From: Bacteroidales bacterium
GTDB lineage: Bacteria > Bacteroidota > Bacteroidia > Bacteroidales > WCHB1-69
Assembly: GCA_024400635.1 (NCBI GenBank)
Contig: JAKSMI010000003.1
Coordinates: forward strand, 1,076 to 65,075
DNA length: 64,000 bases
Direction of reading: 5' to 3'
Made by a program: the position numbers and the translations under genes. Shown piece after piece: positions 9,191 to 50,350 of this stretch (the stretch's first letter is position 1; each line of letters starts with the position of its first letter). The notes below the pieces were generated by a model. The model ran no database searches and was not told where the DNA came from. It saw only the letters and a list, made by a program, of their open reading frames with translations.

Positions 9191-9239
9191 TGATTTATTG
9201 TTTGGTTTTTAGTTTTCAGTTTTAAATTCTAATAACATT

Positions 9240-15974: not shown

Positions 15975-16215
15975 CTACCTGAAAGGCAGTGTTTGAGTAA
16001 CCGATTGCAGCGACGAAGGAGCTGTTGTTGGCATTGTGACGGTGAGGCAGCGGTGTCTGAAGGGCAGTATTTGAGTAACCGATTGCAGCGACGAAGGAGC
16101 TGTTGTTGGCATTGTGACGGTGAGGCAGCGGTGTCTGAAAGACACCACAACATAGTAACCGGGGACGAAGTCTCCGGTGGAAGTGGCGTTGTGGCATCTC
16201 TTGCCTGAAAGGCAA
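15975..16215 (+). repeat. GC-rich multi-hairpin intergenic element, copy B, with an internal 78-bp tandem duplication
   Basis: 78-bp units start at 15979 and 16057, and a third truncated unit starts at 16135. Ends with ggtgtc-tgaaa-gacacc, ccggggac-gaa-gtctccgg and ttgcc-tgaaa-ggcaa hairpins. Confidence 0.9.
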
Positions 16216-16437
16216 TACCATTTCCTGATACTTTCTTTGAGACCCAAAGAAAGTATCGCAAAGAAAGGTTTCCCGCTGAACAAGCCTTTGCTACAAATCG
16301 GGCAGTTGCAGGCTAAACGCAGAAACTCGCAGGCTCCACTCCGTTCCGCCTGCTCAAACAGTCTGCGTTCTTAACGCCTTCACCCGCCACGATTTGTCAC
16401 GCAAAGCGCTTGTAAGGCGGAGGATATAAATGGGGTG

Positions 16438-16494
16438 TTGGAGGTGCTGCCGGCATTGTGACGACAAGACAGCGGTGTCTTTCAGACACCGCTG
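16438..16494 (+). repeat. GC-rich element, partial copy C, with flipped hairpin loop
   Basis: The string aggaggtgctgccggcattgtg is identical to copy A. The hairpin cagcggtgtc-tttca-gacaccgctg (16470-16494) has its loop inverted relative to the other copies. Confidence 0.8.
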
Positions 16495-16556: not shown

Positions 16557-19500
16557 TTATTCAGGATCAACCTCTGGTATCTCATATACTTGAACACAAC
16601 GTACGCTGAGACCTGCCGTCTTTGGATTGAGAATCTCTATCCACTTGTAGCAATGACAGTCGGCTTCGAAAGTTCTAACTTGTCCATCAGTAGAAAGGTC
16701 TGATGACCAGAAGTAGGTGTTACCCAAAAGGTTTTCACAACGGTCTAAGATACTGTTATAACAACCTGCAGGAAGCAAGGTGAAGTCAGTGGTATTGGTA
16801 CCATCGTGTACTAACCAATATTCGGAAGTTCTTAATGTTCTAACATCAATACCCAACATTTTTTCAAATTGAGCGGCATTGGGAACAACCCAACCTTCAG
16901 GACATACACCTTGTACCATTTCACCAGCGTTTTCAGGAACGGTATTATTAACGGTGGCATTCCAAGTGTATAACAAACCAAAGGTCTGGGCATTCTGTGC
17001 AGAATCTGGATATGCCTCATTGCCTTGGTATGCTCTTACATCAGGAACATCAGTACCATCGGCATAATGGGTAGTTCTGAGGTTTTCTTTCATCCAGCAG
17101 TTAAAGCCAATACGAACCGTACCATATACATTTCCATCAATATCGGTTACGGTATGGTCTTCGCCGCAAGGAGGAAGTAACAAGGTAATCTCTTGACTAC
17201 ATTCGTGGGCTGTTCCACAAATATCAGTCACTTGCCAATAAATAGTAGTATTAGGATTATCGACACTTGGAACAAAGACGGAATCCGTTGGCTGATGCCA
17301 AGCTTCTGTAGTATTACGACGATACAAGACAGAGGCAATCATATTTTGAGGAAGCGTATCTTCATTATGAAGCACGGGAGGAGTAATTAATGAATCGGCA
17401 TGCAAGAAATAATCGCCATAATTCATAACATAAGTCGCAGGGCTACAAGACAAATCATCACCTTCAAGATTATAGACCACAATGTTGACACTATCAAGTG
17501 TAGTACAACCATTTTGGTTCACCGTAAGATAATGCATTTTTGAATGGGTCGCTTCAATGGCATCATAATCTAAGGTGTAGATTGAAGTATCAGTTTTGGA
17601 AGCGATAGGACCATCAACGGTTGACCAGATGACACGGTTGGCTTCTGGAACCAAGACGAAATTCAAACCATTCGTATCGATTTGGAATTGCATTTCTGTA
17701 CCTTGGCAAACGGTATCGGCACCTAAGGTAATATTCCATTTAGGTTGCCTACGTACAGTAATAACACCTGTCTTCTGCAAAGGAGCCGCAGGACAACGTA
17801 CATCTGACAATGCTTCTACCATATAACGCGCAGAAGGGACATCGGTCAAAGTACCGCCCATCGTAATAGTGCCTTCTCCGTTGTCGTTGAAGATGACACC
17901 GGCAGGTTTAACATTGCCTTCGGTTAACCAAGTGAAGCTGTATGAAGCGGCATTTTCAATAAGAATTTCGTTGTCAATTTGAACGTCACCGCAAATACCG
18001 TGATCAAGAGAACCGCGAACGTAGGTGATGGTAGGCTGCTTAATCACTTCTACATCAAAGGTCCAAGTGCTGTCGCAATAAGTGATTTGATCCACTGCCC
18101 TGATGGTATAAGTGGTTGTAGTATCAGGATAAATAGTCAATTCTGTGTTACCATCGAATGCGGTTTCTACAGAAGTATTTTCGTTCAAGAGATAGAACTT
18201 CAGATAGTCATCATCCCCTTGACAAGCAAAGGTTACGCCTTCACCTTCACAGATTTCATTATCGCTGCACGTTTGGGCACTACCATCCAAGGTGGTCAAG
18301 GCAGGACGATCAGCCCAAATCATCAAGTTGTCAACTGTAATATAAGAAGGAATGTATTTAGAACCTTTTAAAGTTCCGCAATCTTGCGTATTACCCGGAG
18401 TTCCGCCAGTGAATTCAAGTTTAAGATACAATCCCTCTTTTTCAAGTGAAGCTATGGATGACAGGTCAAATTCTGCCACCGACCAATCGGTTCCGTCGAT
18501 AGTCTTAGAACCCAAGTTGGTATAACTATCACCCTCCGCAAATTTGTAACTATAATTTACGTTATTAAAAGCAGAGCCTCCATTGTTGTTGTCGCGTTTA
18601 TAATCAAATTTCAGTTTTAAGTTATTATAGTTTTCAGGGTTCAATTTGATTTCAAAATAAACGCCATCAAAATATGTATAAGTAGGCGTAACTAAGAATC
18701 CAGAACATGAACTTGACAAATTCGCCCAACGCAACGCTCCATTGTTTCCGCCATCGGAATAACAATAGTCGGCAGATGGCGCATGACCCGTCACATTGTC
18801 AAATTCGGAAGTTTCATGCACAGCAAACTTAGCACCAACCGTTCTCGCGCCACAAGTGGGCTTGAAATTATTGACACCCGTATTCATATCCCAGGCAGTC
18901 AAAATCACGTTGCTTTCAGAAGAAAGAATTTGTTGTACGCTATTGGTAATCACCGTAACACGGTAAATACTGTCGCAACCGGTTGAACACTTCCAATCTT
19001 CAGGTGAAATCAAATATTCCACACCTTCTTCGGTTGGGGTGAAGTTGAAACCAAAATCGGTATAACTTTCGCCCAAGCAGAGGTAAGCCACCACGGTGGT
19101 GTCGAATGCCTTGCGTACATCCAACATTAATGTAATAACGCTATCGCAAGGATTGGTTTCGGAAGGAATACTCAATTGGCATTCGTGCAAACCCACTTCA
19201 CGCAATTCTTCTACCGAAGGAGTTACGATAAACATACCTGGAACATATTCACACTCATCAGTAAAAGTAATATTGGCCACCTGATCCACTTCATTGGAGC
19301 AAACATAACCGTTACGGACGATGTCCAAACGATAGGCCGGACGAATACCCACTACATCCAAAGTATCGGAAAGAATACATTCTCCTTCACCCACGCTGAC
19401 CACATATTGGAAATCACCTTCAGGAATATTTCCTTCATCGGTAATAATATAATCGTGACCTTCCAATGGAGTACTTGCTCCATTAAATATTCGTTCCCAA

Positions 19501-22500
19501 TTGTAATTGACAGGAGTGGTTACGCTTGGTTCAACAGTAGTGTTTTCGTAAGGAGCGGTAGCCACCAGCGTGATACCCTGGTTGGTACACACTTCGCTTT
19601 CTCCCGTAATGGTAATTTCATCCACGGCCTTCGTACCGGAAATGCAAATATTGTCGAGCATAGAATATTCCGTAAAAGCCGACAAACACAAAGCTTCACT
19701 TTTTGCCGCACCATTAAACGTAATTTTAATATACAAATTATCTTGGTTATCAACAGCGTTTGAAAATTCGGAAGACAAGTCCAATTCGAAATGACCATCC
19801 ACTCTCGTACCACTTGTCATCTCAACAGTTTTGGCCTGTCCCAAATTTTGATACGTACCACCATCAGTACTAAACGCAAATTGATATTGAGTGAAACCGT
19901 GGTCATTATCACCCAAATACTCACGTTCTATGCCATAATCCAATTTCAGTTTAATCTGGCTATAATCTTTGGTAGAGGTTTTAATAATGATATTTTTGCC
20001 GTTATTCATGTATTTTGTACAAGAATTATATGTACCATTAATCAAACCCAAGGAGTTTCCTGAAGCGGGAACCAAGCCTGAAGTGCTGGCAAGATTGTCT
20101 GCCGATTTATTATCTCCGTTCCAACCGCTATAGGAAATAGTGGAATTGGGTTTTGAACCTGCCACATCCGCTGAAATTGGAGAGCTCACGTTGGAGAAGG
20201 AAGTCCAGCCGGCAATGAGGGTTTCGTTTTCTTCGTAGCCAAACTGGTTCCATTCCTGAACATAAAGGTCGAGGGTGACAATACTGTCGCATCCGTTCAC
20301 TGATTGCAAATTGACAACATACACACCCGAAGTAGTGAAGGTTTCGCTGTGTCCTTTACTGTCGCTCACGGTATAGCTTGCACCGGCGCAGATTGACTGT
20401 ACATCGGTAACATTATACACAGGATTTACAGTAATTTTTCCATCATAATAATTAGGAGCCGCACACTTGGTTTGTTCATCACGAAGCAAAGCTACGTGGT
20501 AGGTAAATGTTCCCGCTTCAGTTGGCATACCGGTAATAGCGGTTTGACCTGGAACAGATTTGTCGATTGTAACATCCTCAGGCATATAAGGATCGAAGGT
20601 GATTTGAGGTTCGCAATCGCCACCGTGTTTGAACTGAATGTCATCGATGGGCTCGTTTTGGCAAACAGCTTGTACCGTATCACCAGAAGCGTCAACATAT
20701 TGCAAGTGGGCACTATAGGTAATATAAATAGCATCTGGAACACGGGCACTCACACAACCGTTGGCGTACTGAGCCGCATACATCGTGGTATCCAACTCGT
20801 TGGTCATAGAAACCGTTGGGGTCTCGGAAGAAAATTCAGTCGTTGTTGAATTTTCATACCAACGCAAAGAGTATTGTTGATCGGTAGTAGTCGCTTTGAA
20901 TGCGATAAATTTGCCTTCTTCGGGGCAAACCGTAGTATCGAGACGCACGATAGGAACGGGCACTTCAATTACGTGCAAAACAGTATCTAAAGAATAGGCA
21001 TCGCAACCACGATCGTTGCTCACGAAAGTTCTATATTTAAGATTTCCCGTAACGAAGAAATTCGACGCATTGATTACATTATTATGATAGGTATCGTAAG
21101 TGGCTTCATTGGCCGAAATGGTATCCCATTCGGTTTGGTCTCCAACTTTCAATTCCCAAGTATAGGTATAGGTTGCCCCTGGTCCCGAAGCAATACCACC
21201 CGTAATGCTTCCTGCTGTCAATTCAACCGTACCATTAGGACAGGTCTCTTTTGATGAAAGCATAGGTTTTCCCAAAGTAGGATCTGAAACTGCCGTAACT
21301 GAGACCTGTTCAGTAGCGACCTTACACTCTTCTTGATTGAAATAAATCAGTTCCGCACGAATCACATAAGTACCTGCTGCCAACAATACCTGATTCAAAG
21401 TATCGTTCTGACTTGCCAATTGGGCAGATCCACCATTCATAGATACCATCCAACGGTATTCTGTCGGGAAAGCATAACCTCCAGACAAGCTTTCCAATTT
21501 CCAATCATCGCTTGGATCAACTACCACTTGGCCACCCACACAGAATTGATCGTAATTAGCCGTTGGTGCCTCATAAATATCCGGCAATCCTGCAACATGA
21601 ATGATAGCTGAATCCTCACTTACCTTCCAGTCTGAGCAGGCCACCTTGGCATAACGTTTCAATATATACTTGCCATTAAGTTCGCTTATGTCTAAATCGC
21701 TATTGTCAATGCTGTCTTTATTATTGGTGATAAATCGTTCCGTACCACTTTCATCAGTATAAGACCATTGATATTCAATGGTTCCTGCTGGAGTAATGGA
21801 GGCCTTGGTTACATTTTTCACCTTCCAGGCACCATTATGGCAGGTATAAATGGTTGTAGCTTCAATTTTCCCAGGATTGACTTCAGCAACCTCAACAGTA
21901 TAGGTATTTTCGGAAGCGATGGAATCCATAGAACAGCCGTTTACCTTGGCATAACGTTGGTAGGTATGCGTGCCAGAGCACAACACATTGGCATCAATAT
22001 ATAAGTTGTGATCAATGGCGCCAGGAACAAGCTCGCCATTATGAATCCAGAAATAGTCATTGCCGGCTGACAATTCGGAACCAGTGATAGAAACCGGAGC
22101 ACCAGGGACAATCGTAGTGCTGACATTTTCAATATTACCTGCGTTATAGGTTACTTCAACCTTATATTCGCCAGCAGATTTGGGTTCTTCACCACCGATT
22201 TTAACCACACGCTTCACGCTATAGTTACCTGGATTGGCCGTGTATTGGGCAAAAACACCTGATGCCAAGGTAGGCGTTGTAGGAGTAGCATCGTATGAAG
22301 CGATAGGAGTAGAAACACCATTAATATATAAATACCATTTATAAGTAAAGCCCACACCATTGGTAGTGCTTGCCGGAGTTTGATTTTCAACACCGAAATT
22401 GGCGCAAGAGGTTATACTCGTTGTTCCGGAGATAGTACCCATATAAAGCCATTGGGCATAGATGGTATAATTATTTGTTTTTTTGCAGACGCTATCGGTA

Positions 22501-23474
22501 GTAAGATACTTTTGACCTGCCTGGTCGGTAGTCCAACCGAGGAAGAAATAGCCGTCGCGGGTTGGGGTTGGCAGATCGGCTTCTTTATAATTATCATAAT
22601 AAAGAATGGTAAAGTTCTCCGTTGGAGCACCATCGTAATTCAGGTTACGGGTAACTTGCAGGGTGAGGGTTTCGTAAGTGATACGGATAGCACCTTGGGC
22701 ACCGGTACCACCAGATTCTGTACCAATAGACCAACAATTACGGACAGCGCCACTGCCGCCGCCACCATAAAGGTTTCCATCACGACCAGAAGCTGTATTT
22801 GTTGTACTAGGATATCCATCCGCGCCATTTCCTCCCCCATCAGCAGTTCCTACACCGGCAGTATTGGCATTGGCATTTCCGCCAATTCCATTAGAGCCGG
22901 CAGCACCTCCGCCACCACCAGAGATGACAGATCCCCCAATTCCAACCATATTAGGATTAGTCAATGTTGCAGTACCACCAGTGCCTCCATTATGCTTTAT
23001 AATTCCTAAAGTAGCGACACCTCCTCCACCTCCTCCAATAGACCCCTTCCCAGTTTGATTTTTACCAGCCTTACCACCTCCTGCTTCAACTTTAACAGAA
23101 CCATTGAACGAAGCCACACTCGCCCCTCCATCATTTCCAGAGGTTCCACCCTCGCCAACCGCATAAGATAATGAACGAATTGACGATAAAGTAATTAGAT
23201 CGGTATATGCAGCGTATGCACCGCCACCGCCACCAGAACCACCACCATGCTTAGCTGCGGAAGATGTTGCGTTACCGCCGCCGCCACCGCCGCCCCAAGC
23301 TTCAAGCTTGGTGATTTTCCATGCCCCCACAGGCGCGTTCCAAGTTCCTGTACCAACGGTGGTTACCATTGTTGTATCGCTTTTCGTCTTCGGATAGGTT
23401 TGCTGCGCTGTTGCCGTGCCTACCAAGAGGCAGAGGGACAGCGTCAGGATTGAGAAAATAAATCTCTTTTTCAT
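16557..23474 (-). CDS. giant secreted protein (2305 aa): signal peptide, polyglycine-rich N-domain, Listeria-Bacteroides repeat, many Cys-containing Ig-like modules, two jelly-roll-like about 200-aa modules, C-terminal FISUMP domain
   Basis: MKKRFIFSILTLSLCLLVGTATAQ signal. G5-G7 runs across residues about 60-270. LPTPTRDGYFFLGWTT repeat. GCDS..TL.L.V modules. C-terminal CGEDHTVTDIDGNVYGTVRIGFNCWMKENL...YTWN...GVCPEGW.VP...F..L...LPAG...YFWSS...VRCV FISUMP pattern. Confidence 0.85.
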   Translation of the reverse strand: MKKRFIFSILTLSLCLLVGTATAQQTYPKTKSDTTMVTTVGTGTWNAPVGAWKITKLEAWGGGGGGGNATSSAAKHGGGSGGGGGAYAAYTDLITLSSIRSLSYAVGEGGTSGNDGGASVASFNGSVKVEAGGGKAGKNQTGKGSIGGGGGGVATLGIIKHNGGTGGTATLTNPNMVGIGGSVISGGGGGAAGSNGIGGNANANTAGVGTADGGGNGADGYPSTTNTASGRDGNLYGGGGSGAVRNCWSIGTESGGTGAQGAIRITYETLTLQVTRNLNYDGAPTENFTILYYDNYKEADLPTPTRDGYFFLGWTTDQAGQKYLTTDSVCKKTNNYTIYAQWLYMGTISGTTSITSCANFGVENQTPASTTNGVGFTYKWYLYINGVSTPIASYDATPTTPTLASGVFAQYTANPGNYSVKRVVKIGGEEPKSAGEYKVEVTYNAGNIENVSTTIVPGAPVSITGSELSAGNDYFWIHNGELVPGAIDHNLYIDANVLCSGTHTYQRYAKVNGCSMDSIASENTYTVEVAEVNPGKIEATTIYTCHNGAWKVKNVTKASITPAGTIEYQWSYTDESGTERFITNNKDSIDNSDLDISELNGKYILKRYAKVACSDWKVSEDSAIIHVAGLPDIYEAPTANYDQFCVGGQVVVDPSDDWKLESLSGGYAFPTEYRWMVSMNGGSAQLASQNDTLNQVLLAAGTYVIRAELIYFNQEECKVATEQVSVTAVSDPTLGKPMLSSKETCPNGTVELTAGSITGGIASGPGATYTYTWELKVGDQTEWDTISANEATYDTYHNNVINASNFFVTGNLKYRTFVSNDRGCDAYSLDTVLHVIEVPVPIVRLDTTVCPEEGKFIAFKATTTDQQYSLRWYENSTTTEFSSETPTVSMTNELDTTMYAAQYANGCVSARVPDAIYITYSAHLQYVDASGDTVQAVCQNEPIDDIQFKHGGDCEPQITFDPYMPEDVTIDKSVPGQTAITGMPTEAGTFTYHVALLRDEQTKCAAPNYYDGKITVNPVYNVTDVQSICAGASYTVSDSKGHSETFTTSGVYVVNLQSVNGCDSIVTLDLYVQEWNQFGYEENETLIAGWTSFSNVSSPISADVAGSKPNSTISYSGWNGDNKSADNLASTSGLVPASGNSLGLINGTYNSCTKYMNNGKNIIIKTSTKDYSQIKLKLDYGIEREYLGDNDHGFTQYQFAFSTDGGTYQNLGQAKTVEMTSGTRVDGHFELDLSSEFSNAVDNQDNLYIKITFNGAAKSEALCLSAFTEYSMLDNICISGTKAVDEITITGESEVCTNQGITLVATAPYENTTVEPSVTTPVNYNWERIFNGASTPLEGHDYIITDEGNIPEGDFQYVVSVGEGECILSDTLDVVGIRPAYRLDIVRNGYVCSNEVDQVANITFTDECEYVPGMFIVTPSVEELREVGLHECQLSIPSETNPCDSVITLMLDVRKAFDTTVVAYLCLGESYTDFGFNFTPTEEGVEYLISPEDWKCSTGCDSIYRVTVITNSVQQILSSESNVILTAWDMNTGVNNFKPTCGARTVGAKFAVHETSEFDNVTGHAPSADYCYSDGGNNGALRWANLSSSCSGFLVTPTYTYFDGVYFEIKLNPENYNNLKLKFDYKRDNNNGGSAFNNVNYSYKFAEGDSYTNLGSKTIDGTDWSVAEFDLSSIASLEKEGLYLKLEFTGGTPGNTQDCGTLKGSKYIPSYITVDNLMIWADRPALTTLDGSAQTCSDNEICEGEGVTFACQGDDDYLKFYLLNENTSVETAFDGNTELTIYPDTTTTYTIRAVDQITYCDSTWTFDVEVIKQPTITYVRGSLDHGICGDVQIDNEILIENAASYSFTWLTEGNVKPAGVIFNDNGEGTITMGGTLTDVPSARYMVEALSDVRCPAAPLQKTGVITVRRQPKWNITLGADTVCQGTEMQFQIDTNGLNFVLVPEANRVIWSTVDGPIASKTDTSIYTLDYDAIEATHSKMHYLTVNQNGCTTLDSVNIVVYNLEGDDLSCSPATYVMNYGDYFLHADSLITPPVLHNEDTLPQNMIASVLYRRNTTEAWHQPTDSVFVPSVDNPNTTIYWQVTDICGTAHECSQEITLLLPPCGEDHTVTDIDGNVYGTVRIGFNCWMKENLRTTHYADGTDVPDVRAYQGNEAYPDSAQNAQTFGLLYTWNATVNNTVPENAGEMVQGVCPEGWVVPNAAQFEKMLGIDVRTLRTSEYWLVHDGTNTTDFTLLPAGCYNSILDRCENLLGNTYFWSSDLSTDGQVRTFEADCHCYKWIEILNPKTAGLSVRCVQVYEIPEVDPE

Positions 23475-23539
23475 AATTTGATGTTTTAGTTTATATTTTA
23501 TTTTGTCTTTTTCTTCTACGCCTTAATATATGTAATCGG

Positions 23540-23547
23540 CAAAAATA
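23540..23547 (-). promoter_or_regulatory. candidate -7 box (TATTTTTG) of the 2305-aa gene
   Basis: The reverse complement of caaaaata matches TAnnTTTG. The surrounding block gcaaaaata.aa.t.atttctttacaaaat.aaca is conserved upstream of the paralog at 30026-30060. Confidence 0.5.
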
Positions 23548-23659
23548 CAACTAATTTCTTTACAAAATCAACATTTTTTCTAAAAAAAAAACAAATATGC
23601 TTGATTATCAACGTATTAAATATGTTAAAAAAAGTTAAGTATAACTGAGTGGGGAGGAT

Positions 23660-24090
23660 TGTTAAACCACCACCCCGCCCTTCGGGCACGAGTGAGACCT
23701 ACGGTCTCTTTCTCCTTTTCGCTCAACAGAGCCCAAGCAAGCTTGGCTCTGTGTTCGCTCATGCGTCAATTCCTTAAAAGGAGGGGAAGTTTGACCACCC
23801 CGCCCTTCGGTTAGCAGCCTTTCCCGGTCAGCAGCAACCACCCCGCCCTTCGGGCACCCCTCCTTGCAAGCAAGGATGGGAAGTTTGACCACCCCGCCCT
23901 TCGGGCACCCCTCCTTAAAAGGAGGGGAATTAAGCGGCTTCTTGGCTTCCTTCACGTCTGAACCCTTAACTGAACCCTGAAAAGGAGGGGAAGTTTAGAA
24001 CGGTTGCCATTGTGTCGTGTGCTTGCGGTACGGGAAACGGCACCATTTCCCCTCCTTGATAGGAGGGGAGGCACGAAGTGCGGGGTGGTA
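23660..24090. repeat. cluster of GC-rich palindromic repeat units (box ACCACCCCGCCCTTCGGGCAC plus hairpin CCCCTCCTT-loop-AAGGAGGGG)
   Basis: Box copies at about 23668, 23795, 23837 and 23888 (forward) and 24070-24090 (inverted). Hairpins at 23857-23880, 23908-23927 and 24050-24069. Extra palindromes gagacc-tac-ggtctc and cagagcc..ggctctg. Confidence 0.85.
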
Positions 24091-24371
24091 GAATCCTTAA
24101 AAAATTCTATGATATCGACTTTACACGACAATTTGTAATCGGCAATTTTATCGTTGATTTTTATATCCGAAAATTGCAGATTGTCATTGAAATTGACGGT
24201 GGGTCGCATAACGACAAGTTTGATTACGACAAAAAAAGGGAGAATTACCTAACGAATTTGGGACTGAAAGTGTTTCGAACAACAGATTGGGATGTTATGC
24301 ACAATCTTGACATTGTTCTCGGGGATTTGAAGCAATTCATTCTTGACCATTGCGAGAAGGGGGAAGTTTGA
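24078..24371 (+). CDS. DUF559 (Vsr/restriction-endonuclease-like fold) protein, N-terminally truncated, possibly a pseudogene
   Basis: KFYDIDFTRQFVIGNFIVDFYIRKLQIVIEIDGGSHND....R...L...G..V.R matches the DUF559 core. The usual N-terminal roughly 30-aa helix (..LR...T.AE..LW..) is missing. The GTG start lies inside an inverted repeat box, and the stop TGA lies inside a gaagtttgac repeat box. Confidence 0.55.
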   Translation: MRGGRILKKFYDIDFTRQFVIGNFIVDFYIRKLQIVIEIDGGSHNDKFDYDKKRENYLTNLGLKVFRTTDWDVMHNLDIVLGDLKQFILDHCEKGEV

Positions 24372-24433
24372 CTACCCCGGCCTGACGGCAACAATACGGC
24401 TTGAAAAGAAAATTAGCTCTTACATAAACCCAC

Positions 24434-24478
24434 AAAAAAAAGGGCTTCGCACTACCTTTCGCACGAAGCCCTTTTTTT
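24434..24478. terminator. bidirectional intrinsic terminator between the DUF559 gene and the 1810-aa gene
   Basis: A8 run, stem gggcttcg/cgaagccc (24442-24449 / 24464-24471), T7 run. Confidence 0.75.
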
Positions 24479-24519
24479 ATAATCTGTAATCAGAAAAATG
24501 TATGCTGTTTGGAATATGA

Positions 24520-27500
24520 TTAATTATTCACGGGATTTAACACACAGCGAACAGAGTAAACTTCATAATCTATATGGTTGCCATAATTTAAAGTAGCACT
24601 GTTATTTTGAAGATACGGCACTGATTGGCCATCAGTTGTTGTACTCCAAAAATAAGCTTTACTTTCATAACCCTCAGCTTGGGCTCTTATTCGACCACTT
24701 CCTTGTGAAGCACCTCGAGTTATTTTACCAGCTGGATAAGCATTGAAACGAGAAGCATTGTTAGTAGTTCCTTGATTATAACCAACATTACAAGCGCCAG
24801 TAGTAACGTTAGTCCAATCCGAAGTGGAAGCCAAGGCCTTAGCAATATTATTCTCTATATCATTACAACGATAACCAGTTTGGGATTTTACAAATTGAAC
24901 CATCACATTCCATTCTGCGAGAGAAGGCACGTGCCAGCCGTTAGGACATACACCTTGCACTCCACTCGGGTTAGCATTAGTGGCCGGTGCTCCGTTCATA
25001 ACGGCATACCAATTGTACAGATAACCATAGGTTCCAACATCTTCGTTATTCACAGCATTTGGAGCATAACGACCTGGGTTATTATAGTCGTTATTATAAT
25101 AATGGAATTCAATTGCAGTTCCATTAGCGAAGTGTTTTGTACGCAAGTTCTCAGCCATCCAACATTGATTTCCAAGTAACACAGTGTTGTATTGGTTATT
25201 ATCAAAGTCAACCACTTTTTCAGTTCCACAAGCGAACATTGTAGTAAAGCTCATTACGTTGCCATAAACGGTGTCGGTTCCGTTAGCAACAAAGGCCTTG
25301 AAATAATACTGGGTATTTTCAGCAAGACCGTTAAGCGTGCAATTGTAAGAGCCAGTAGCCGCAACAGGAGCAGCAGCATTAACCAATGTTTCTAAAGCAT
25401 CTTCGCTTGTTCCGTATTTGAATCCGGCATGTACAGATGAAAGTTTAGCCAAATCTTTCACATTACCATATAATTTAGCACCTCTCATCATAATGCTGCT
25501 GGCACTGTCGGTAGTAACAGCCATCACAAGTGTCTTGAAAGACTTCACCTCACCATAAACGGTGTCGGTTCCGTTGGCTTCAAAAGCTTTATAATAATAG
25601 GTGGTATTGGCAGTAAGACCGTTAAGCGTGCAGTTGTAAGAGCCGGTAGCCGCAACAGGAGCAGCAGCATTAACCAATGTTTCTAAAGCATCTTCGCTTG
25701 TTCCGTATTTGAATCCGGCATGTACAGATGAAAGTTTAGCCAAATCTTTCACATTACCATATAATTTAGCACCTCTCATCATAATGCTGCTGGCACTGTC
25801 GGTAGTAACAGCCATCACAAGTGTCTTGAAAGACTTCACCTCACCATAAACGGTGTCGGTTCCGTTGGCTTCAAAAGCTTTATAATAATAGGTGGTATTG
25901 GCAGTAAGACCGTTAAGCGTGCAGTTGTAAGAGCCGGTAGCCGCAACAGGAGCAGCAGCATTAACCAATGTTTCTAAAGCATCTTCGCTTGTTCCGTATT
26001 TGAATCCGGCATGTACAGATGAAAGTTTAGCCAAATCTTTCACATTACCATATAATTTAGCACCTCTCATCATAATGCTGCTGGCACTGTCGGTAGTAAC
26101 AGCCATAGTGGCGATGACAAAATGCTTAATATCACCATAAACCGTATCAAGACCGTAAGCTTCAAAAGCTTTATATGAATACTTAACACCAACTGAAAGA
26201 CCGCTAAGGTCGCAGGTGAAAGCACCTGGCGCATTCATAGCTTCATTCTTTACAATGATAGAATTCATTTCGGCATCACTAACACCATATTTGAAACCAA
26301 CATTGACGGAAGACACACCGCTCATATCAAGAACAGTACCGTATAAGGTTGCGTTGGTTTCGTCAACAAACGCAGTATCAGTCTTAACCGACAATGAAAC
26401 CGGCGAAACTTCTTCAGCTTGAATACAACGAACGCTGAAAGCATTTGTTTTTGAGGCGTGGATTTCCTGCCATTGGTAGCAGTGGCAATCGGCTTCAAAA
26501 GTTCTTGCCTCGGTTTCACTGTAGGAATCTGAAGTCCAGAAGTAGGCATTACCCAGGAGGTTTTCATAACGGTTATGAACATGATTGTAGCAACCGCCAG
26601 GAAGCATAGAGAAGTCTGTCGTATTCGTACCATCGAGAGTTAACCAATAGTCTTGAGTTCTCATAGATTTAACATCAATAGAAATCATTTTTTCGAATTG
26701 GGCCGCATTTGGCAAATACCAACCATCGGGGCAAATACCCTGAATCAGTTCGTCTGAACCAGAAGAAATTGTATTTTTAACCGCATCGTTCCAAGTGTAT
26801 AACAAACCAAAGGTTTGGGCATTCTGTGCAGAATCTGGATATGCCTCATTGCCTTGGTATGCTCTTACATCAGGAACATCAGTACCATCGGCATAACGTG
26901 TGGTCTTCAAGTTTTCTTTCATCCAGCAGTTGAAACCGACACGAACGGTCTGATATTCATTACCGTCAATATCGACTACAGTATGACCTTCGCCGCAATT
27001 AGGCAATTCGCAGGTAACTTCCTGATCTTTTTCGTGAATAAAACCGCATTTGTCTTTGATTTTCCAATGAACAGTGACTTTCATTGTAGCAGGATCAGGA
27101 TAGATCTTTGCCGCAGGTGAAAGGACAGTATCAATCCAATCCGTTCTTTTCACGCCCCTGTGCCACAAGGCAGGAACAGGCAAACTATCTCTATAAATGA
27201 AATTTTCACCATAATTGTAAGTAACATTAATAGCCGGTGCAGCCAGGGTGTCATTTTCCATATCCATAAAATAAACCTTTACAGAACCTTTTGACGCAAC
27301 GGAATCCATTTCGCAATTGGTCAACTTGGCATATCTGCGAATAATGTAGGTATCGTCATCTTGAACATCACTACAGATGCCCGCTAATTGCTCTTTTGAC
27401 AAACCTTCGCTGGCGTATTCAGATTTTACAAATGCGGCGCCATTCTTGCTATACATCCAAATATACTCGAAATTCTGAGCCACGGCAGGTTCAATACTGA

Positions 27501-29952
27501 CGATAGACTTATCCTCGGGAATGTTAATACCGCAAATATCAATAGCGGAAGAGTCAATGGCTCCCGTAGGGAATGTGACGGTTACCTTGTATGCTTTTTC
27601 TGAAATTTTATATTTTTTATTGCAGATGCTACTAATAACCTTACGGGTATAAGTATAGCTACCCGGGCACATATTGGCTGCGTTCAATTCGTAATTTTGA
27701 GTAGCAACGGAAGTACTTACTCCATTTTGCAACCATTCGTAAGTCACATTGCTACCCATATTTTCACCATTGATGGTAAGACTTACCTTAGTAGTAATTG
27801 TAGTGTCTTCCTTTGCATCAATGCGACCCGGATCTAACTGCACCCTCAACGTGTAGGTATTGGCTGAAACTTTCCATTTCGCATTATCGTGAGTGCTTAC
27901 TTTTACTTTTCGGGTGAAGACATAAGTGCTGTCCGGACAAAGACTGGCAGGAATAGAATAATCCTTAGACTCTGCAGCAGGTATTTCCATATTATTGCAG
28001 AACCACTTGTAATCTACATTAGCAATTGCTGTACCCTCGATTGTAATTGTTCCGTAATTATGAGCCACTGTACTATCGCCACCAACAATGCTGCCCGCAT
28101 CGGTACTTATGTTCACCTTGTACGTACCAGCAGAACGTGAGGAACCTCCGTCGTACTGACATTGCCCCGAAGACACGACGTTACGAGTGAACTCATACGT
28201 GCTGTCGGGACAAAGCGAATTTGCTGAAATGGTCAAGTCCTGACTACTTGCACCTGGTACAGGATGATTTTGACAATTCCAAGAATATACACTAGTTGGC
28301 ACATTTTCTCCGTGAATGGTTATTTCAGGATGATTGTGGGTATAAGATACAGTTTTGCTTTCAATGGTATCAAGAGCAATGCTTATTTTATAAACATTAT
28401 CACTTGATTGCCAACCACAAGGAGCGGCCATAACTTCGCGCTGATATTGCGATTGCTTATTTGGACAAATTAGAGAAGATGATCCCACAGTTAAATTCTG
28501 CCCAGTTGCTCCGTCAAGAACATCAGCGTCTTTTTTCCATCTATAAGTTGCACCAGTAATTGCGGAACCTTGAATAGAGAAACCATTGTTGAGGGCTCTT
28601 GCCGTAGTATCCTTGGCGGTAATGGCATTCGTTTCCACTTTATAAACAATGGTATAAGCGCCTTTAGACATTACCGTATCGCTCCAGTCACCATATTGGT
28701 TATTTCTAAAAGCAACAGAACGCTTAAACACGTAGGTACCTGCCTGGGTTAATATGCTGCTGCCCACCGGGCATTCGTTCACACCACTATTATTAATAGT
28801 ATGAGATTGGCCGCCATTATAAGTATAGTACCAAGTATATCTGAAATAAGACGCTCCCGTGGGATCGGCCAGACTTTTAACGGTATCCTTACCGCATACA
28901 GAGGACAATTCTCTAGTAGAAGTTGTAATTTCACCCGCATAGCACCAATGGGCATAAATATTGTGGTTTTCATTTTGAGTGCATTTCGTTGTAGCAGTTA
29001 CCTGCGTACCACTCGTAGCATGGGTAAACCAACCTAAGAATAGGTAACCTGGGCGAGTAGGGGTAGGCAAAGTACCATAATTGGTATTATATCTGACCTC
29101 TTTAGACGTAGGACTTACCGTTCCTCCACCGTTGAGATCAAATGTTACGGTAAGAATACGTATCTGGTAGGTAATGTGAACAGCACCGTTAGCACCGTTA
29201 CCGCCCTTAAAACTGCTGCTACCGTTTCTTCTACAAGCACCAGAACCGCCACCACCATAAGGTGTTCCCGCAGCACCATTAGAATTCGAATTACTAATTC
29301 CAGCGGCACCATCTCCTGAGTTATTAGCCACACCTGTTTTTCCATCACCTTTAGTTGCATTTGAGGCATCACCACCATTCGCTTCAGGTCCAGCTGCACC
29401 GCCGCCACCACCAGAATACGTACCAGCACTTCGACCACCCTTTCCGCCATTCTTATTTACTGTTCCATTGGAGGCTACACCGCCAGCACCTTGAGAACTA
29501 GTTGAGGTACTAGTACCGCCACCGCTACCGCCTGTTGCACGAACATAATAACTGTTTCCTGAAGATGGCCGAACATACGATTCTCCGCCGCCAGCACCCG
29601 CTGCAGCAGAATTACCAATACCTCCTTGCCCCACTATATAACGCACCGATGTAGATGTAGATGTACCTATACTAATAGCAGGGGTAGAAGCAGAGTATGC
29701 ACCACCGCCGCCACCACCTGCGCCACGGTTACTATTGACACCACCGCCGCCGCCACCAGCACCCCAGGCTTCCACCTTGGTAATTTGGTAAGCACCTGCA
29801 GGATGCGTGTTCCAAGTTTGTGCGGTATTAGTAGGATTCGTGAATCTCACCACGGTATCCTTTGTCGCATAGTTTTGCGGCTGCGCTGTTGCCGTACCTA
29901 TCAAGAGGCAGAGGAACAGCGTTAAGATTGAGGAAATAAATCCTTTTTTCAT
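24520..29952 (-). CDS. giant secreted protein (1810 aa), paralog of 16557-23474: signal peptide, polyglycine-rich N-domain, Listeria-Bacteroides repeat, Ig-like modules, internal FISUMP domain, four Fn3-like repeats, second C-terminal FISUMP domain
   Basis: MKKGFISSILTLFLCLLIGTATAQ signal. WNTHPAGAYQITKVEAWGAGGGGGG. LPTPTRPGYLFLGWFT. Internal CGEGHTVVDIDGNEYQTVRVGFNCWMKENL and C-terminal CGTEKVVDFDNNQYNTVLLGNQCWMAENL FISUMP starts. Confidence 0.85.
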   Translation of the reverse strand: MKKGFISSILTLFLCLLIGTATAQPQNYATKDTVVRFTNPTNTAQTWNTHPAGAYQITKVEAWGAGGGGGGVNSNRGAGGGGGGAYSASTPAISIGTSTSTSVRYIVGQGGIGNSAAAGAGGGESYVRPSSGNSYYVRATGGSGGGTSTSTSSQGAGGVASNGTVNKNGGKGGRSAGTYSGGGGGAAGPEANGGDASNATKGDGKTGVANNSGDGAAGISNSNSNGAAGTPYGGGGSGACRRNGSSSFKGGNGANGAVHITYQIRILTVTFDLNGGGTVSPTSKEVRYNTNYGTLPTPTRPGYLFLGWFTHATSGTQVTATTKCTQNENHNIYAHWCYAGEITTSTRELSSVCGKDTVKSLADPTGASYFRYTWYYTYNGGQSHTINNSGVNECPVGSSILTQAGTYVFKRSVAFRNNQYGDWSDTVMSKGAYTIVYKVETNAITAKDTTARALNNGFSIQGSAITGATYRWKKDADVLDGATGQNLTVGSSSLICPNKQSQYQREVMAAPCGWQSSDNVYKISIALDTIESKTVSYTHNHPEITIHGENVPTSVYSWNCQNHPVPGASSQDLTISANSLCPDSTYEFTRNVVSSGQCQYDGGSSRSAGTYKVNISTDAGSIVGGDSTVAHNYGTITIEGTAIANVDYKWFCNNMEIPAAESKDYSIPASLCPDSTYVFTRKVKVSTHDNAKWKVSANTYTLRVQLDPGRIDAKEDTTITTKVSLTINGENMGSNVTYEWLQNGVSTSVATQNYELNAANMCPGSYTYTRKVISSICNKKYKISEKAYKVTVTFPTGAIDSSAIDICGINIPEDKSIVSIEPAVAQNFEYIWMYSKNGAAFVKSEYASEGLSKEQLAGICSDVQDDDTYIIRRYAKLTNCEMDSVASKGSVKVYFMDMENDTLAAPAINVTYNYGENFIYRDSLPVPALWHRGVKRTDWIDTVLSPAAKIYPDPATMKVTVHWKIKDKCGFIHEKDQEVTCELPNCGEGHTVVDIDGNEYQTVRVGFNCWMKENLKTTRYADGTDVPDVRAYQGNEAYPDSAQNAQTFGLLYTWNDAVKNTISSGSDELIQGICPDGWYLPNAAQFEKMISIDVKSMRTQDYWLTLDGTNTTDFSMLPGGCYNHVHNRYENLLGNAYFWTSDSYSETEARTFEADCHCYQWQEIHASKTNAFSVRCIQAEEVSPVSLSVKTDTAFVDETNATLYGTVLDMSGVSSVNVGFKYGVSDAEMNSIIVKNEAMNAPGAFTCDLSGLSVGVKYSYKAFEAYGLDTVYGDIKHFVIATMAVTTDSASSIMMRGAKLYGNVKDLAKLSSVHAGFKYGTSEDALETLVNAAAPVAATGSYNCTLNGLTANTTYYYKAFEANGTDTVYGEVKSFKTLVMAVTTDSASSIMMRGAKLYGNVKDLAKLSSVHAGFKYGTSEDALETLVNAAAPVAATGSYNCTLNGLTANTTYYYKAFEANGTDTVYGEVKSFKTLVMAVTTDSASSIMMRGAKLYGNVKDLAKLSSVHAGFKYGTSEDALETLVNAAAPVAATGSYNCTLNGLAENTQYYFKAFVANGTDTVYGNVMSFTTMFACGTEKVVDFDNNQYNTVLLGNQCWMAENLRTKHFANGTAIEFHYYNNDYNNPGRYAPNAVNNEDVGTYGYLYNWYAVMNGAPATNANPSGVQGVCPNGWHVPSLAEWNVMVQFVKSQTGYRCNDIENNIAKALASTSDWTNVTTGACNVGYNQGTTNNASRFNAYPAGKITRGASQGSGRIRAQAEGYESKAYFWSTTTDGQSVPYLQNNSATLNYGNHIDYEVYSVRCVLNPVNN
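25230..26102 (-). repeat. in-frame 291-bp (97-aa) tandem repeat, 3 copies; copies at 25521-25811 and 25812-26102 are identical by eye
   Basis: The marker ccatcacaag recurs at 25521 and 25812, a 291-bp period. The third copy (25230-25520) is identical from about 25351 onward. A fourth, diverged copy follows at 26103 to about 26395. Confidence 0.9.
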
Positions 29953-30025
29953 AATTTAAATGTTTTAGTTAATATTTTTGGTTTTTATATTTCATCTTAC
30001 ACTTTACATCTATTTAGTTGTCGTG

Positions 30026-30033
30026 CAAAAATA
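30026..30033 (-). promoter_or_regulatory. candidate -7 box (TATTTTTG) of the 1810-aa gene
   Basis: The reverse complement of caaaaata matches TAnnTTTG. The context is conserved with 23540-23575. Confidence 0.5.
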
Positions 30034-30226
30034 AAAATTTTTCTTTACAAAATTAACAGTTTCTGTAAAAAAATATTAAAATACGTATTTTACTAATATT
30101 AAACACATTATGCTTATATTTAAGACTTTATGAACTTTAAAAACACACATTCTAACATATGTGGTCGTTGGAAAAAAGAAATATATTTTGCATTTGTTAC
30201 ATAGACACGTTTTTAGGGATATTACC

Positions 30227-30320
30227 TAACCGCTTGCAGCGACGAAGGAGGTGCTGGCGGCGGTGTGACGGTGAGGCGGCGGTGTGACGGTGAGACGGCG
30301 GTGTCTGAAAGACACCACGG
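30227..30320 (+). repeat. GC-rich multi-hairpin intergenic element, copy D
   Basis: taaccgcttgcagcgacgaaggaggtgctgg..., tandem ggcggtgtgacggtgag x2, and terminal ggtgtc-tgaaa-gacacc (30300-30316). Confidence 0.85.
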
Positions 30321-50323: not shown

Positions 50324-50350
50324 ATGATGAAAGAATTGCAAAACTTAATT

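What the first reader, a model, noticed from the sequence alone, without database searches (positions are those of the whole stretch)
16557..29952. Two adjacent giant paralogs pairing a polyglycine-rich N-domain with FISUMP C-domains; function and export route unknown
Seen in the sequence. Two same-strand ORFs of 2305 and 1810 aa share a near-identical signal peptide (MKK.FI.SILTL.LCLL.GTATAQ). Each then has a roughly 230-aa domain dominated by G5-G7 runs, introduced by W(N).....GA(W/Y).ITK.EAWG.GGGGG and ending ..GA(I/V).ITY. A Listeria-Bacteroides repeat follows (LPTPTR.GY.FLGW.T), then long arrays of Cys-containing Ig-like modules, then one or two FISUMP domains (Fibrobacter succinogenes major paralogous domain). 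Neither protein has a lipobox or a T9SS sorting domain, although T9SS cargo genes lie nearby at 30378, 60636 and 62523. The mechanism of surface delivery is therefore unclear. Inference: the glycine-rich domain resembles the bacterial Gly_rich family that is related to the polyglycine-II lattice domain of ALK/LTK receptors. I do not know of a characterised protein that combines it with a FISUMP lectin-like module. Together with the repeat-mediated variability listed separately, this looks like a fast-evolving surface adhesin or receptor-binding system.
Basis: partly seen in the sequence, partly recalled or inferred. Interest (0 to 1): 0.7.

Follow-up and report, generated by a model that had tools for sequence, protein, structure and literature searches.

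The report
Giant adhesin pair with phage-fibre-like heads
Two neighbouring giant secreted proteins of a rumen-type Bacteroidales bacterium carry at their front end a glycine-rich domain with the fold that phages use at tail-fibre tips to recognise hosts, and a FISUMP domain at the back; they look like modular adhesins whose two ends are swapped by recombination, but how they would reach the cell surface is unknown.

Summary
Two intact same-strand ORFs (2305 and 1810 aa) share a signal peptide (20/24 identical), a Pfam Gly_rich_2 domain (30-32% Gly, G4-G7 runs), a Listeria-Bacteroides repeat and one or two C-terminal FISUMP domains. Neither has a lipobox or a T9SS sorting domain.

New here:
- **Head fold.** The glycine-rich domain is predicted with high confidence. 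It matches the TNF-like plus glycine-rich receptor-binding tip of phage tail fibres (Pam3 gp24, Bxb1 tail tip) much better than ALK.
- **Distribution.** The domain occurs in more than 5600 representative proteins, often as the N-terminal head of 1000-5400-aa proteins. At least 62 of the 188 proteins scanned (148 of them from this search) end in a T9SS sorting domain.
- **FISUMP ending.** Only three others (an orthologue and two more distant proteins) end in FISUMP instead.
- **Mosaic evolution.** Against the one orthologue found, synonymous divergence is 0.05-0.2 in the stalk and about 1.2-1.7 in the head and the FISUMP tail. dN/dS is below 1 everywhere except one short domain.

FISUMP is not itself a T9SS signal, and its lectin fold was not confirmed here. 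Most of the stalk has no family assignment. The best reading is a modular ligand-binding adhesin with an unresolved outer-membrane route. It is an unusual variant built from known domains; moderate interest.

The parts
16557..23474 (-). Gene A, 2305 aa, intact ORF
   Evidence: Pfam
23403..23474 (-). A signal peptide (residues 1-24). SPI-type, predicted cleavage TATA|QQ, with Gln at +1. The Cys at residue 15 lies inside the hydrophobic core, so it is not a lipobox.
   Evidence: sequence; 20/24 identical to B
22674..23363 (-). A Gly_rich_2 domain (residues 38-267), a TNF-like plus glycine-rich head
   Evidence: Pfam 27.9 bits against a cut-off of 24.3; PHROG tail families; 31.7% Gly
22452..22601 (-). 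A Listeria-Bacteroides repeat (Flg_new, residues 292-341)
17505..22442 (-). A stalk (residues 345-1990). It has Cys-containing ~90-100-aa modules and a duplicated ~450-aa super-module with an unassigned ~100-150-aa domain (X1 1155-1257, X2 1604-1748). There is no family assignment except a sub-threshold Ig_7 hit at 841-916.
17178..17459 (-). A Ig-like beta-sandwich (residues ~2006-2099) that precedes FISUMP; B has the same domain at 885-985
   Evidence: AlphaFold pLDDT above 90; Foldseek hits to Ig, PKD and cadherin domains only at E about 1e-2; A/B similarity
16590..17117 (-). A FISUMP domain (residues 2120-2295), the last domain of the protein
   Evidence: PF09603 E 2.8e-23 and TIGR02145; alpha/beta model with pLDDT above 90
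24520..29952 (-). Gene B, 1810 aa, intact ORF
   Evidence: recorded in assembly GCA_024500545.1
29881..29952 (-). B signal peptide (residues 1-24), predicted cleavage TATA|QP
29164..29820 (-). B Gly_rich_2 domain (residues 45-263)
   Evidence: Pfam 40.3 bits. In the AlphaFold model most 10-residue blocks of this domain have mean pLDDT above 90. Foldseek matches Pam3 fibre 7ypx_A at E 2e-7 and Bxb1 tail tip 9d93 at E 1e-6. 171 viral models match at E <= 1e-3. phrog_863 (tail) matches at E 2e-9.
28948..29151 (-). B Listeria-Bacteroides repeat (Flg_new, residues 268-335)
   Evidence: InlB B-repeat match in the PDB
27313..28935 (-). B stalk: about six Cys-containing modules of ~90-100 aa (residues 340-880)
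   Evidence: self-comparison; weak K319L-like PKD hit; no PDB or NCBIfam hit
26419..26967 (-). B FISUMP 1 (residues 996-1178), 68% identical to the A FISUMP with one 30-aa stretch 100% identical
25183..26400 (-). B four FN3-like units (residues 1185-1590). Three form a 291-bp tandem array with 97% matches (window 25262-26106). The orthologue has a single unit.
24541..25176 (-). B FISUMP 2 (residues 1593-1804), the last domain of the protein
23480..23600 (-). Promoter-like region of A (TTTG ... TATTTTTG), duplicated upstream of B
   Evidence: (families D10, D13)
29958..30085 (-). Promoter-like region of B (TTTG ... TATTTTTG)
24435..24478 (-). Terminator-like hairpin with T run just after the B stop codon, so A and B are probably separate transcription units
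   Evidence: I8: 15-nt arms, 100% complementary

Best explanation
A and B are paralogous, Sec-exported, modular ligand-binding proteins (fibrillar adhesins) of a rumen or herbivore-gut Bacteroidales bacterium.

**Architecture.** Each protein has three parts:
- An N-terminal head with the TNF-like plus glycine-rich fold. Phages place this fold at the distal, receptor-binding tip of their tail fibres.
- A long stalk of Cys-containing beta modules. It differs between A and B and carries repeats whose copy number varies.
- One or two C-terminal FISUMP domains, which serve as extracytoplasmic ligand-binding or sensor modules in other proteins.

**How specificity changes.** It is diversified by recombination, not by point mutation. 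Head and tail cassettes are exchanged between paralogues and alleles, using the conserved signal-peptide and stalk sequences as flanks. Tandem FN3 units expand and contract.

**Shown here:** the domain composition, the predicted fold of the head, the wide use of this head on large T9SS cargo, the mosaic dS pattern, purifying selection, and the absence of the known sorting signals.

**Inferred:** adhesin function, surface or extracellular location, and the ligands.

**Unknown:** how the proteins cross the outer membrane. I consider surface or extracellular exposure by an unrecognised or non-canonical route somewhat more likely than periplasmic retention.
For: - **Pfam and NCBIfam assignments:**
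- **Head model:** most 10-residue blocks have mean pLDDT above 90.
- **Foldseek against the PDB:** best matches are cyanophage Pam3 fibre gp24 (E 2e-7, target TM 0.60, 244 columns) and the Bxb1 tail tip (E 1e-6). ALK matches only at E about 1e-2.
- **Viral models:** 171 match at E <= 1e-3, including tail-fibre proteins.
- **PHROG tail families:** match at E 2e-9.
- **Pam3 gp24 literature:** this domain is described as the receptor-binding tip, with a conserved glycine stem and a hypervariable distal end (PMC9608196).
- **Exhaustive HMMER search:** 5623 representative proteins at E <= 1e-3. Many are 1000-5400 aa with the domain at residues ~25-260.
- **T9SS endings:** 60 of the 188 proteins scanned (40 plus 148) end in a type A sorting domain and 2 in a type B domain. 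In those proteins an N-terminal head would be the end farthest from the cell.
- **FISUMP partners:** FISUMP is fused to Ser/Thr kinases and to T9SS cargo.
- **Mosaicism against the orthologue:** dS is 0.18 in the stalk and 0.05 in the Ig-like domain. It is 1.17 in the head, 1.73 in Flg_new and 1.16 in FISUMP1. The orthologue's Flg_new is closer to A (dS 0.44). dN/dS is 0.16-0.58.
- **Repeat variation:** 3 against 1 near-identical FN3 units.
- **Transcription signals:** each gene has its own promoter-like box, and a terminator follows B.
Against: - No lipobox, no type A or type B T9SS sorting domain and no other recognisable anchor was found. By current knowledge of Bacteroidota these proteins would stop in the periplasm.
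- There are no expression or localisation data.
- About 70% of A and 35% of B has no family assignment.
- The FISUMP fold, and hence any lectin function, was not confirmed.
- In phage fibres the glycine-rich domain is C-terminal and part of a trimer. Here it is N-terminal and its oligomeric state is unknown.
- Only one close relative exists in the collections searched, so the evolutionary inference rests on a single comparison.
- tblastn found no phage sequence relative.
Confidence: 0.55

Rival explanations
1. A and B are T9SS cargo that use a non-canonical C-terminal signal. The terminal FISUMP domain, or its last strands, would be recognised by the T9SS, and the proteins would be displayed like the many Gly_rich_2-headed cargo proteins.
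For: - The genome has T9SS cargo, including the gene immediately upstream.
- At least 62 of the 188 Gly_rich_2 proteins scanned carry T9SS sorting domains.
- A has a near-threshold hit to Ig_7, the 'CHU_C-associated' Ig domain.
- From my own knowledge, not tested here: Flavobacterium johnsoniae ChiA is secreted by the T9SS through a C-terminal region unlike either sorting-domain family.
Against: - FISUMP proteins that are T9SS cargo carry a separate Por_Secre_tail domain after FISUMP (P0229, P0230, P0233, P0244, P0259 and others). FISUMP is therefore not itself the signal.
- FISUMP also occurs on Ser/Thr kinases, where it cannot be a secretion signal.
- My sorting-domain HMMs score A and B only at noise level.
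Confidence: 0.15
2. A and B are periplasmic or OMV-lumen proteins that never reach the surface. An example would be envelope-associated scaffolds whose FISUMP domains bind a cell-envelope glycan.
For: - They have an SPI signal and none of the known Bacteroidota surface-export signals.
- FISUMP occurs as the non-kinase part of Ser/Thr kinases. If those proteins have the usual kinase, membrane-span, sensor topology, which I did not check, it would lie in the periplasm.
Against: - The head is homologous to receptor-binding tips of phage fibres.
- The head sits on many T9SS-secreted proteins.
- Multi-kilodalton Ig-like stalks, copy-number-variable repeats and cassette exchange at both binding ends are typical of exposed adhesins, not of periplasmic housekeeping proteins.
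- The family is very sparsely distributed.
Confidence: 0.2
3. The FISUMP domains are variable regions of a diversity-generating retroelement (DGR), which would account for the variability.
For: DGR surveys list Fib_succ_major, with DUF1566, as one class of target domain (PMC5758913; PMC4159848).
Against: - No reverse transcriptase was found in any ORF of at least 150 aa that I scanned in the 64-kb window. That is all the non-overlapping ones; ORFs nested on the opposite strand were skipped.
- No template-repeat-like copy of a FISUMP 3' end exists in the window. The only repeats are the paralogous domains themselves.
- FISUMP dN/dS is 0.16-0.21, the lowest of all regions.
Confidence: 0.03
4. 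The genes are remnants of prophage or tailocin tail-fibre genes, not cellular genes.
For: Fold and profile similarity of the head to phage tail-fibre and minor tail proteins.
Against: - Both have Sec signal peptides.
- The neighbours are housekeeping genes, with no phage genes in 64 kb.
- tblastn found no match in 50,697 phage records or in IMG/VR.
- The domain is common at the N-terminus of cellular T9SS cargo.
Confidence: 0.03

Closest known systems
Cyanophage Pam3 tail fibre gp24 (PDB 7YPX/7YFW), TNF-like plus glycine-rich receptor-binding tip
   Same: It is the best structural match to the predicted head: Foldseek E 2e-7, probability 1.0, TM 0.60 on the target, 244 of 250 residues aligned. 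Both have glycine-rich motifs such as GGGGxGG packed in a lattice between beta strands, and more variable inter-motif segments (PMC9608196).
   Different: - gp24 is a 250-aa phage protein with the domain at the C-terminal, distal end of a trimer. An N-terminal helical bundle holds the trimer together and a dedicated chaperone is needed.
- Here the domain follows a signal peptide at the N-terminus of 1800-2300-aa cellular proteins.
- Sequence identity is about 22%.
- tblastn finds no phage relative.
Mycobacteriophage Bxb1 tail-tip chains Qa/Qb (PDB 9D93)
   Same: Second-best structural match, E 1e-6 to 5e-6 and probability 1.0. It is also a phage tail-tip component.
   Different: It is a phage virion protein. 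I could not read a description of its function (the Bxb1 paper was not opened). The RMSD is higher, 7-8 A.
ALK/LTK glycine-rich domain (PDB 7NX3, 7LS0, 9G5I; Pfam Gly_rich PF12810)
   Same: Both combine a polyglycine-II lattice with a TNF-like sandwich.
   Different: The match is only marginal: Foldseek E 1e-2 to 1e-1, TM about 0.2-0.26. Pfam reported Gly_rich_2, not PF12810, at E <= 0.01. ALK is a metazoan receptor kinase ectodomain that binds cytokines.
Gly_rich_2-headed T9SS cargo proteins of Bacteroidota (for example P0010, P0022, P0043, P0048, P0059)
   Same: Same Pfam domain at the same place, directly after the signal peptide. Many are also 1000-3900 aa with Ig-like stalks.
   Different: They end in a type A or type B T9SS sorting domain. 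A and B end in FISUMP and have none. I found no paper on any of them in four text searches.
FISUMP (Fib_succ_major, PF09603/TIGR02145) proteins
   Same: Strong family membership of the C-terminal domains, with the conserved Cys, Trp and 'SVRC' end. As in most members, the domain is C-terminal.
   Different: - In the homologue list most members are 200-550-aa proteins. Some carry a T9SS tail after FISUMP or a Ser/Thr kinase domain. The literature notes that many have a lipoprotein signal (PMC5758913).
- Only 3 of the 188 Gly_rich_2 proteins scanned combine the two domains.
- The family has no solved structure and no tested function.
Salmonella phage S16 gp38 adhesin (PDB 6F45), polyglycine-II sandwich with hypervariable loops
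   Same: Both work on the same principle: a conserved glycine scaffold presents variable loops for receptor recognition (PMC9608196; bioRxiv 10.1101/2023.11.25.568672).
   Different: It is not among the 50 Foldseek PDB matches shown. gp38 has a beta-helix rather than a TNF-like sandwich.

Membership tests
Pfam Gly_rich_2 (PF21722) | Score above the curated gathering cut-off, with near full-length model coverage | tested here: met
   A 27.9 bits and B 40.3 bits against 24.3; model positions 1-225 and 4-226 of 226
Phage tail-fibre TNF-like + glycine-rich tip (Pam3 gp24 type) | The same fold over the whole domain | tested here: met
   The model has mean pLDDT above 90 in most blocks. Foldseek E 2e-7, TM 0.60 on the target, 244 columns. 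PHROG tail families match at E 2e-9. This rests on a predicted structure, not a solved one.
Phage tail-fibre TNF-like + glycine-rich tip (Pam3 gp24 type) | Part of a phage virion: trimeric fibre, phage gene context, C-terminal position | tested here: not met
   The domain is N-terminal after a signal peptide. The neighbours are housekeeping genes. No phage sequence match was found. Oligomeric state cannot be tested with these tools.
ALK/LTK glycine-rich domain (Pfam Gly_rich PF12810) | Profile match to PF12810 or a significant structural match to the ALK domain | tested here: not met
   PF12810 was not reported at E <= 0.01. Foldseek to 7nx3, 7ls0 and 9g5i gives E 1e-2 to 1e-1 and TM 0.2-0.26. 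The folds are related, but A and B are not members.
FISUMP / Fib_succ_major (PF09603, TIGR02145) | Profile score above the cut-off | tested here: met
   A 83.6 bits; B 178.1 bits over two domains; cut-off 33.9. TIGR02145 gives 82.8 and 182.7 bits against 41.65.
FISUMP as a C-type-lectin-fold domain | Structural similarity to C-type lectin, FGE or DUF1566-type structures | tested here: inconclusive
   The model has pLDDT 91 and is alpha/beta. Foldseek against the PDB gave no hit at E <= 1e-3, and the hits shown were to the Ig-like part. There is no PDB sequence or profile hit. The only support is literature grouping with DUF1566 and co-hits of PF07603 in some homologues.
T9SS cargo, type A | C-terminal Por_Secre_tail / TIGR04183 domain | tested here: not met
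   No Pfam or NCBIfam hit. My own HMM, which finds the window's two positive controls at E 1e-13 to 1e-15, gives only noise for A and B and for the downstream frames.
T9SS cargo, type B | C-terminal CHU_C / TIGR04131 domain | tested here: not met
   No hit in A or B. The upstream neighbour scores 63 bits in Pfam and E 4e-22 with my HMM.
Bacteroidota surface lipoprotein | Lipobox with Cys at +1, followed by a polar or acidic export signal | tested here: not met
   The only early Cys (residue 15) is preceded by S-L and followed by the hydrophobic LLVGTATA. An AxA-type site with Gln at +1 follows. This was judged by eye; no predictor was run.
DGR target protein | Nearby reverse transcriptase and a template repeat matching the 3' end of the target, with adenine-specific differences | tested here: not met
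   No RT in the 64 kb, no template-repeat-like copy, and FISUMP dN/dS of 0.16-0.21. A trans-acting element elsewhere in the genome could not be tested.
Listeria-Bacteroides repeat (Flg_new PF09479 / TIGR02543) | Profile score above the cut-off | tested here: met
   A 31.8 bits and B 59.2 bits against 27; InlB B-repeat match in the PDB at E 1e-3

The most novel reading that the evidence does not exclude
The TNF-like plus glycine-rich receptor-binding tip of phage tail fibres may be used very widely by bacteria as the distal head of cell-surface fibrils, in thousands of protein families, many of them T9SS cargo. In this lineage, head and tail cassettes would be shuffled between paralogues in the way phages swap fibre tips to change host range. 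The FISUMP-terminated members, which lack every known sorting signal, would reach or attach to the surface by a route or anchoring mode not yet recognised in Bacteroidota, for example FISUMP binding to a cell-surface glycan.
Probability: 0.25. Interest if true: 0.7.

Novelty: new variant of a known kind. Interest (0 to 1): 0.45.

Why it matters
- **Scale of the fold.** Reviews of glycine-rich polyproline-II bundle domains list only a handful of examples: antifreeze proteins, a translation factor, carboxylating enzymes, S16 gp38 and ALK/LTK. The search here shows the same kind of domain in thousands of bacterial protein families, typically as the N-terminal head of very large secreted proteins. 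None of these appears to have been studied.
- **A tractable case.** This locus has two paralogues with different stalks, exchangeable heads and tails, and an orthologue that is a mosaic of both.
- **If the heads bind receptors.** They would form a new class of bacterial adhesin tips related to phage host-recognition modules. That could explain strain-level differences in attachment in the rumen or gut.
- **Export.** The absence of any known sorting signal in a T9SS-bearing organism gives a concrete test of whether Bacteroidota have another way to display large proteins.

Tried and rejected
- **Word-indexed homologue searches.** The search with the head was saturated by poly-Gly words and returned mostly Flg_new matches. 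The search with the B stalk returned only one weak hit and not even the orthologue, so it says little about the stalk.
- **Related loci.** Scans of GTDB representative genomes with A 1-700 and with a B/orthologue alignment found only one MAG. The JGI metagenome scan found only distant FISUMP matches. The IMG/VR scan found nothing.
- **Phage sequence relatives.** tblastn of the head against 50,697 phage records gave no match.
- **PDB by sequence.** The head gave only the InlB B-repeat, for the Flg_new part. FISUMP gave nothing as a single sequence or as a 7-sequence profile. The X domain and the B stalk gave nothing.
- **Stalk segments at relaxed thresholds.** Pfam gave only sub-threshold Ig_7, PKD and HYR_4C hints, and NCBIfam gave nothing.
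- **FISUMP fold.** Foldseek with the Ig-like plus FISUMP model found no PDB match at E <= 1e-3, so the C-type-lectin assignment could not be verified.
- **DGR hypothesis.** Rejected for this window.
- **Cryptic or frameshifted T9SS domain downstream of the stop codons.** Rejected.
- **Invertible promoter.** No convincing flanking inverted repeats. The A-B spacer is instead filled with GC-rich hairpin repeats and a DUF559-like remnant.
- **Synteny with the orthologue's contig.** None outside the gene itself.
Full report
**Observation**

- The signal peptides are 20/24 identical and every quoted motif is present.
- The glycine-rich stretch has 30-32% Gly against 7.5% in the rest of each protein, with G runs of 4-7 residues.
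- Pfam assigns both proteins, above the curated cut-offs, to Gly_rich_2 (PF21722; A 38-267, B 45-263, nearly full model length), Flg_new and Fib_succ_major. A has one FISUMP domain and B has two. NCBIfam agrees for FISUMP and the Listeria-Bacteroides repeat.
- B also has four FN3-like units. Three of them form a 291-bp tandem array with 97% matches.
- The neighbouring T9SS cargo genes are real. Gene 30378-34172 has DUF7948, PKD, Ig_7 and CHU_C. Genes 60636 and 62523 have Por_Secre_tail.

**Context**

- The window is ordinary chromosome. It carries SufB, a glycogen synthase/phosphorylase fusion, PBP1, ThrRS, ATP synthase subunits, IF-2, NusA and others. No phage genes and no reverse transcriptase were found.
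- Both proteins are on record only in NCBI assembly GCA_024500545.1.
- ThrRS is 82% identical to yak-rumen and ruminal Bacteroidales MAGs and 79% to a Paludibacteraceae MAG. The organism is therefore a rumen or herbivore-gut Bacteroidales lineage.
- A and B each have a duplicated promoter-like region (TTTG ... TATTTTTG), and a strong hairpin terminator follows B. They are probably separate transcription units.

**The head**

- AlphaFold2 was run on B 24-345 with a 31-sequence alignment. [quoted passage not shown] The Flg_new part was poorly predicted.
- Foldseek against the PDB gave four significant matches, all phage tail components. They are cyanophage Pam3 fibre gp24 (7ypx_A, E 2e-7, TM 0.60 on the target, 244 columns; 7yfw_a) and two chains of the mycobacteriophage Bxb1 tail tip (9d93, E 1e-6 and 5e-6).
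- ALK ectodomain entries follow only at E 1e-2 to 1e-1.
- Against predicted viral structures, 171 models match at E <= 1e-3. Many are named glycine-rich domain or tail-fibre proteins. Giant-virus collagen-like proteins also appear.
- At the sequence-profile level the heads hit PHROG tail families: phrog_863 at E 2e-9 and phrog_356 at E 2e-4.
- The Pam3 paper describes this unit as a TNF-like sandwich that extends into a four-layer lattice of glycine-rich motifs. The stem is conserved and the distal tip is variable and proposed to bind the receptor. The paper also notes its similarity to S16 gp38 and to ALK (PMC9608196).
tblastn found no phage sequence relative, so there is no sign of recent exchange with phages.

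**How common is it?**

- An exhaustive HMMER search with a head profile found 5623 representative proteins at E <= 1e-3 and 1995 at E <= 1e-10.
- Among the best 150, most are 700-5400 aa with the domain at residues ~25-260. Some have 2-7 tandem copies.
- I scanned the 188 proteins held at that point (40 and 148) with HMMs built from known sorting domains. Sixty end in a type A T9SS domain and two in a type B domain. This is a lower bound, because several others have similar-looking tails or are truncated.
- Only three end in FISUMP: P0071, P0142 (NVO21228.1, a Bacteroidetes MAG) and P0127. All three have the same order of SPI signal, head, Cys-rich modules and terminal FISUMP, with no T9SS domain.
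- The architecture is rare but recurrent.
- I found no paper that characterises a cellular Gly_rich_2 protein or a FISUMP protein. A review of polyproline-II bundle domains lists only a handful of examples.

**The tail**

- FISUMP membership is beyond doubt.
- A homologue search found 834 proteins at E <= 1e-8. Their partners are informative. Many ~450-475-aa proteins have a Por_Secre_tail after FISUMP. Many 521-aa proteins fuse FISUMP to a Ser/Thr kinase. Some regions also hit DUF1566.
- FISUMP is thus an extracytoplasmic ligand-binding or sensor module, not a secretion signal.
- AlphaFold2 of A 1990-2305 gave mean pLDDT 91.4. The model is an Ig-like beta domain followed by an alpha/beta domain.
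- Foldseek found no PDB match at E <= 1e-3, and the hits shown align to the Ig-like part. PDB sequence and profile searches found nothing.
- The 'lectin-like' label therefore rests only on the DGR literature, which groups FISUMP with DUF1566.

**The stalk**

- A and B share only the head region (1-390) and the tail (A 1991-2305 with B 885-1185).
- B has about six ~90-100-aa modules, two of which also occur in A.
- A has a duplicated ~450-aa super-module that contains an unassigned domain, X1 at 1155-1257 and X2 at 1604-1748.
- Apart from a sub-threshold Ig_7 hit and a weak PKD hit, nothing in Pfam, NCBIfam or the PDB matches these regions.

**Evolution**

- The only close relative found in 185,579 species genomes and the JGI metagenomes is a 1494-aa protein of a Bacteroidales MAG, locus L001. 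Its flanks are not syntenic with the window.
- It is an orthologue of B with one FN3 unit instead of three.
- Its Flg_new region is 76% identical to A and 40% to B (dS 0.44 against 1.73).
- Nei-Gojobori estimates for B against this orthologue are:

| Region | dS | dN/dS |
|---|---|---|
| Signal peptide | 0.20 | 0.40 |
| Glycine-rich head | 1.17 | 0.41 |
| Flg_new | 1.73 | 0.36 |
| Stalk | 0.18 | 0.58 |
| Ig-like domain | 0.05 | 1.82 |
| FISUMP1 | 1.16 | 0.16 |

- The high dN/dS of the short, little-diverged Ig-like domain rests on very few substitutions.
- The two binding ends are much older than the stalk that joins them. This indicates replacement of head and tail cassettes by recombination, with purifying selection on each cassette.
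- A 30-residue stretch that is 100% identical between the A FISUMP and B FISUMP1 points to gene conversion within the locus.

**Export**

- Both proteins have an SPI-type signal with Gln at +1.
- They have no lipobox and no type A or B T9SS domain, and no cryptic domain lies in any frame downstream of the stop codons.
- Current knowledge of Bacteroidota would therefore leave them in the periplasm.
- Set against this are the homology of the head to receptor-binding fibre tips, its frequent use on T9SS cargo, and the adhesin-like evolutionary pattern.
- I conclude that the route is unresolved. Surface or extracellular exposure by an unrecognised or non-canonical route seems somewhat more likely than periplasmic retention.

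**Verdict**

- These are modular, recombining, probably ligand-binding giant proteins built from known but uncharacterised domain families.
- The new points are the phage-fibre-tip nature of the head, its wide use on large bacterial secreted proteins, the cassette mosaicism, and the absence of any known sorting signal.
- It is a new variant of a known kind, of moderate interest.

Noticed in passing
window 673-786, 15991-16182, 16413-16492, 30220-30318: An intergenic repeat family of ~66-112 nt ends in the hairpin GGTGTCTGAAAGACACC. Copies sit just downstream of stop codons, including those of gene A and of the T9SS cargo gene 30378-34172. It looks like a REP-like or terminator-associated element.
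   Followed up: partly
window 586-672, 9098-9208, 15933-15968, 50344-50418 (inverted): Tandem arrays of the octamer TAAGAAAC/TAAGAAAT (TTTAGTTG on the other strand) occur in several intergenic regions.
   Followed up: no
window 23475-24519: The A-B spacer holds a DUF559-like endonuclease remnant on the + strand (...IVIEIDGGSHNDKFDYDKKRENYLTNLGLKVFRTTDWDV...). It also holds five copies of a GC-rich element (ACCACCCCGCCCTTCGGGCA next to the palindrome CCCCTCCTTAAAAGGAGGGG).
   Followed up: partly
window 60636-62456 (-): In this 606-aa GTG-started ORF the Por_Secre_tail match lies at residues 92-163, ahead of a P_proprotein match at 387-420. A C-terminal sorting domain should not be there. The ORF may merge two genes, or the true start may be later.
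   Followed up: no
window 11644-15870 (+): A 1408-aa fusion of a glycogen synthase (GT5/GT4-like) with an alpha-glucan phosphorylase and DUF3417.
   Followed up: no
proteins P0062, P0094, P0103, P0104; P0111, P0140, P0159; P0115, P0134, P0174, P0176: Several Gly_rich_2 proteins without a recognised T9SS domain end in recurring short motifs...LP(T/I)TSxIYH(R/Q)...(W/Y/F)G(V/I)P(N/D)T(S/G)(E/D)I(T/N)T(D/N)...(M/I)PxxGxF(N/D). These could be unrecognised sorting signals or conserved truncation points.
   Followed up: no
proteins P0226, P0228, P0231, P0235-P0238 and others: A large group of ~521-aa proteins fuses a Ser/Thr protein kinase domain to a FISUMP domain. This suggests FISUMP serves as the sensor domain of transmembrane kinases in Bacteroidota.
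   Followed up: no
protein P0142 (NVO21228.1), residues ~1380-1440: This other Gly_rich_2...FISUMP protein contains dockerin-like calcium-binding repeats (DINQDGIVDGTDMAAVDN ... DANGDGIVDGSDMALVDN) between its stalk and its FN3-FISUMP units.
   Followed up: no
window 30378-34172 (-): The type B (CHU_C) T9SS cargo gene directly upstream of B has no adjacent PorP/SprF-like gene. From my own knowledge such a partner often accompanies type B cargo. Its downstream neighbour is gene B.
   Followed up: no
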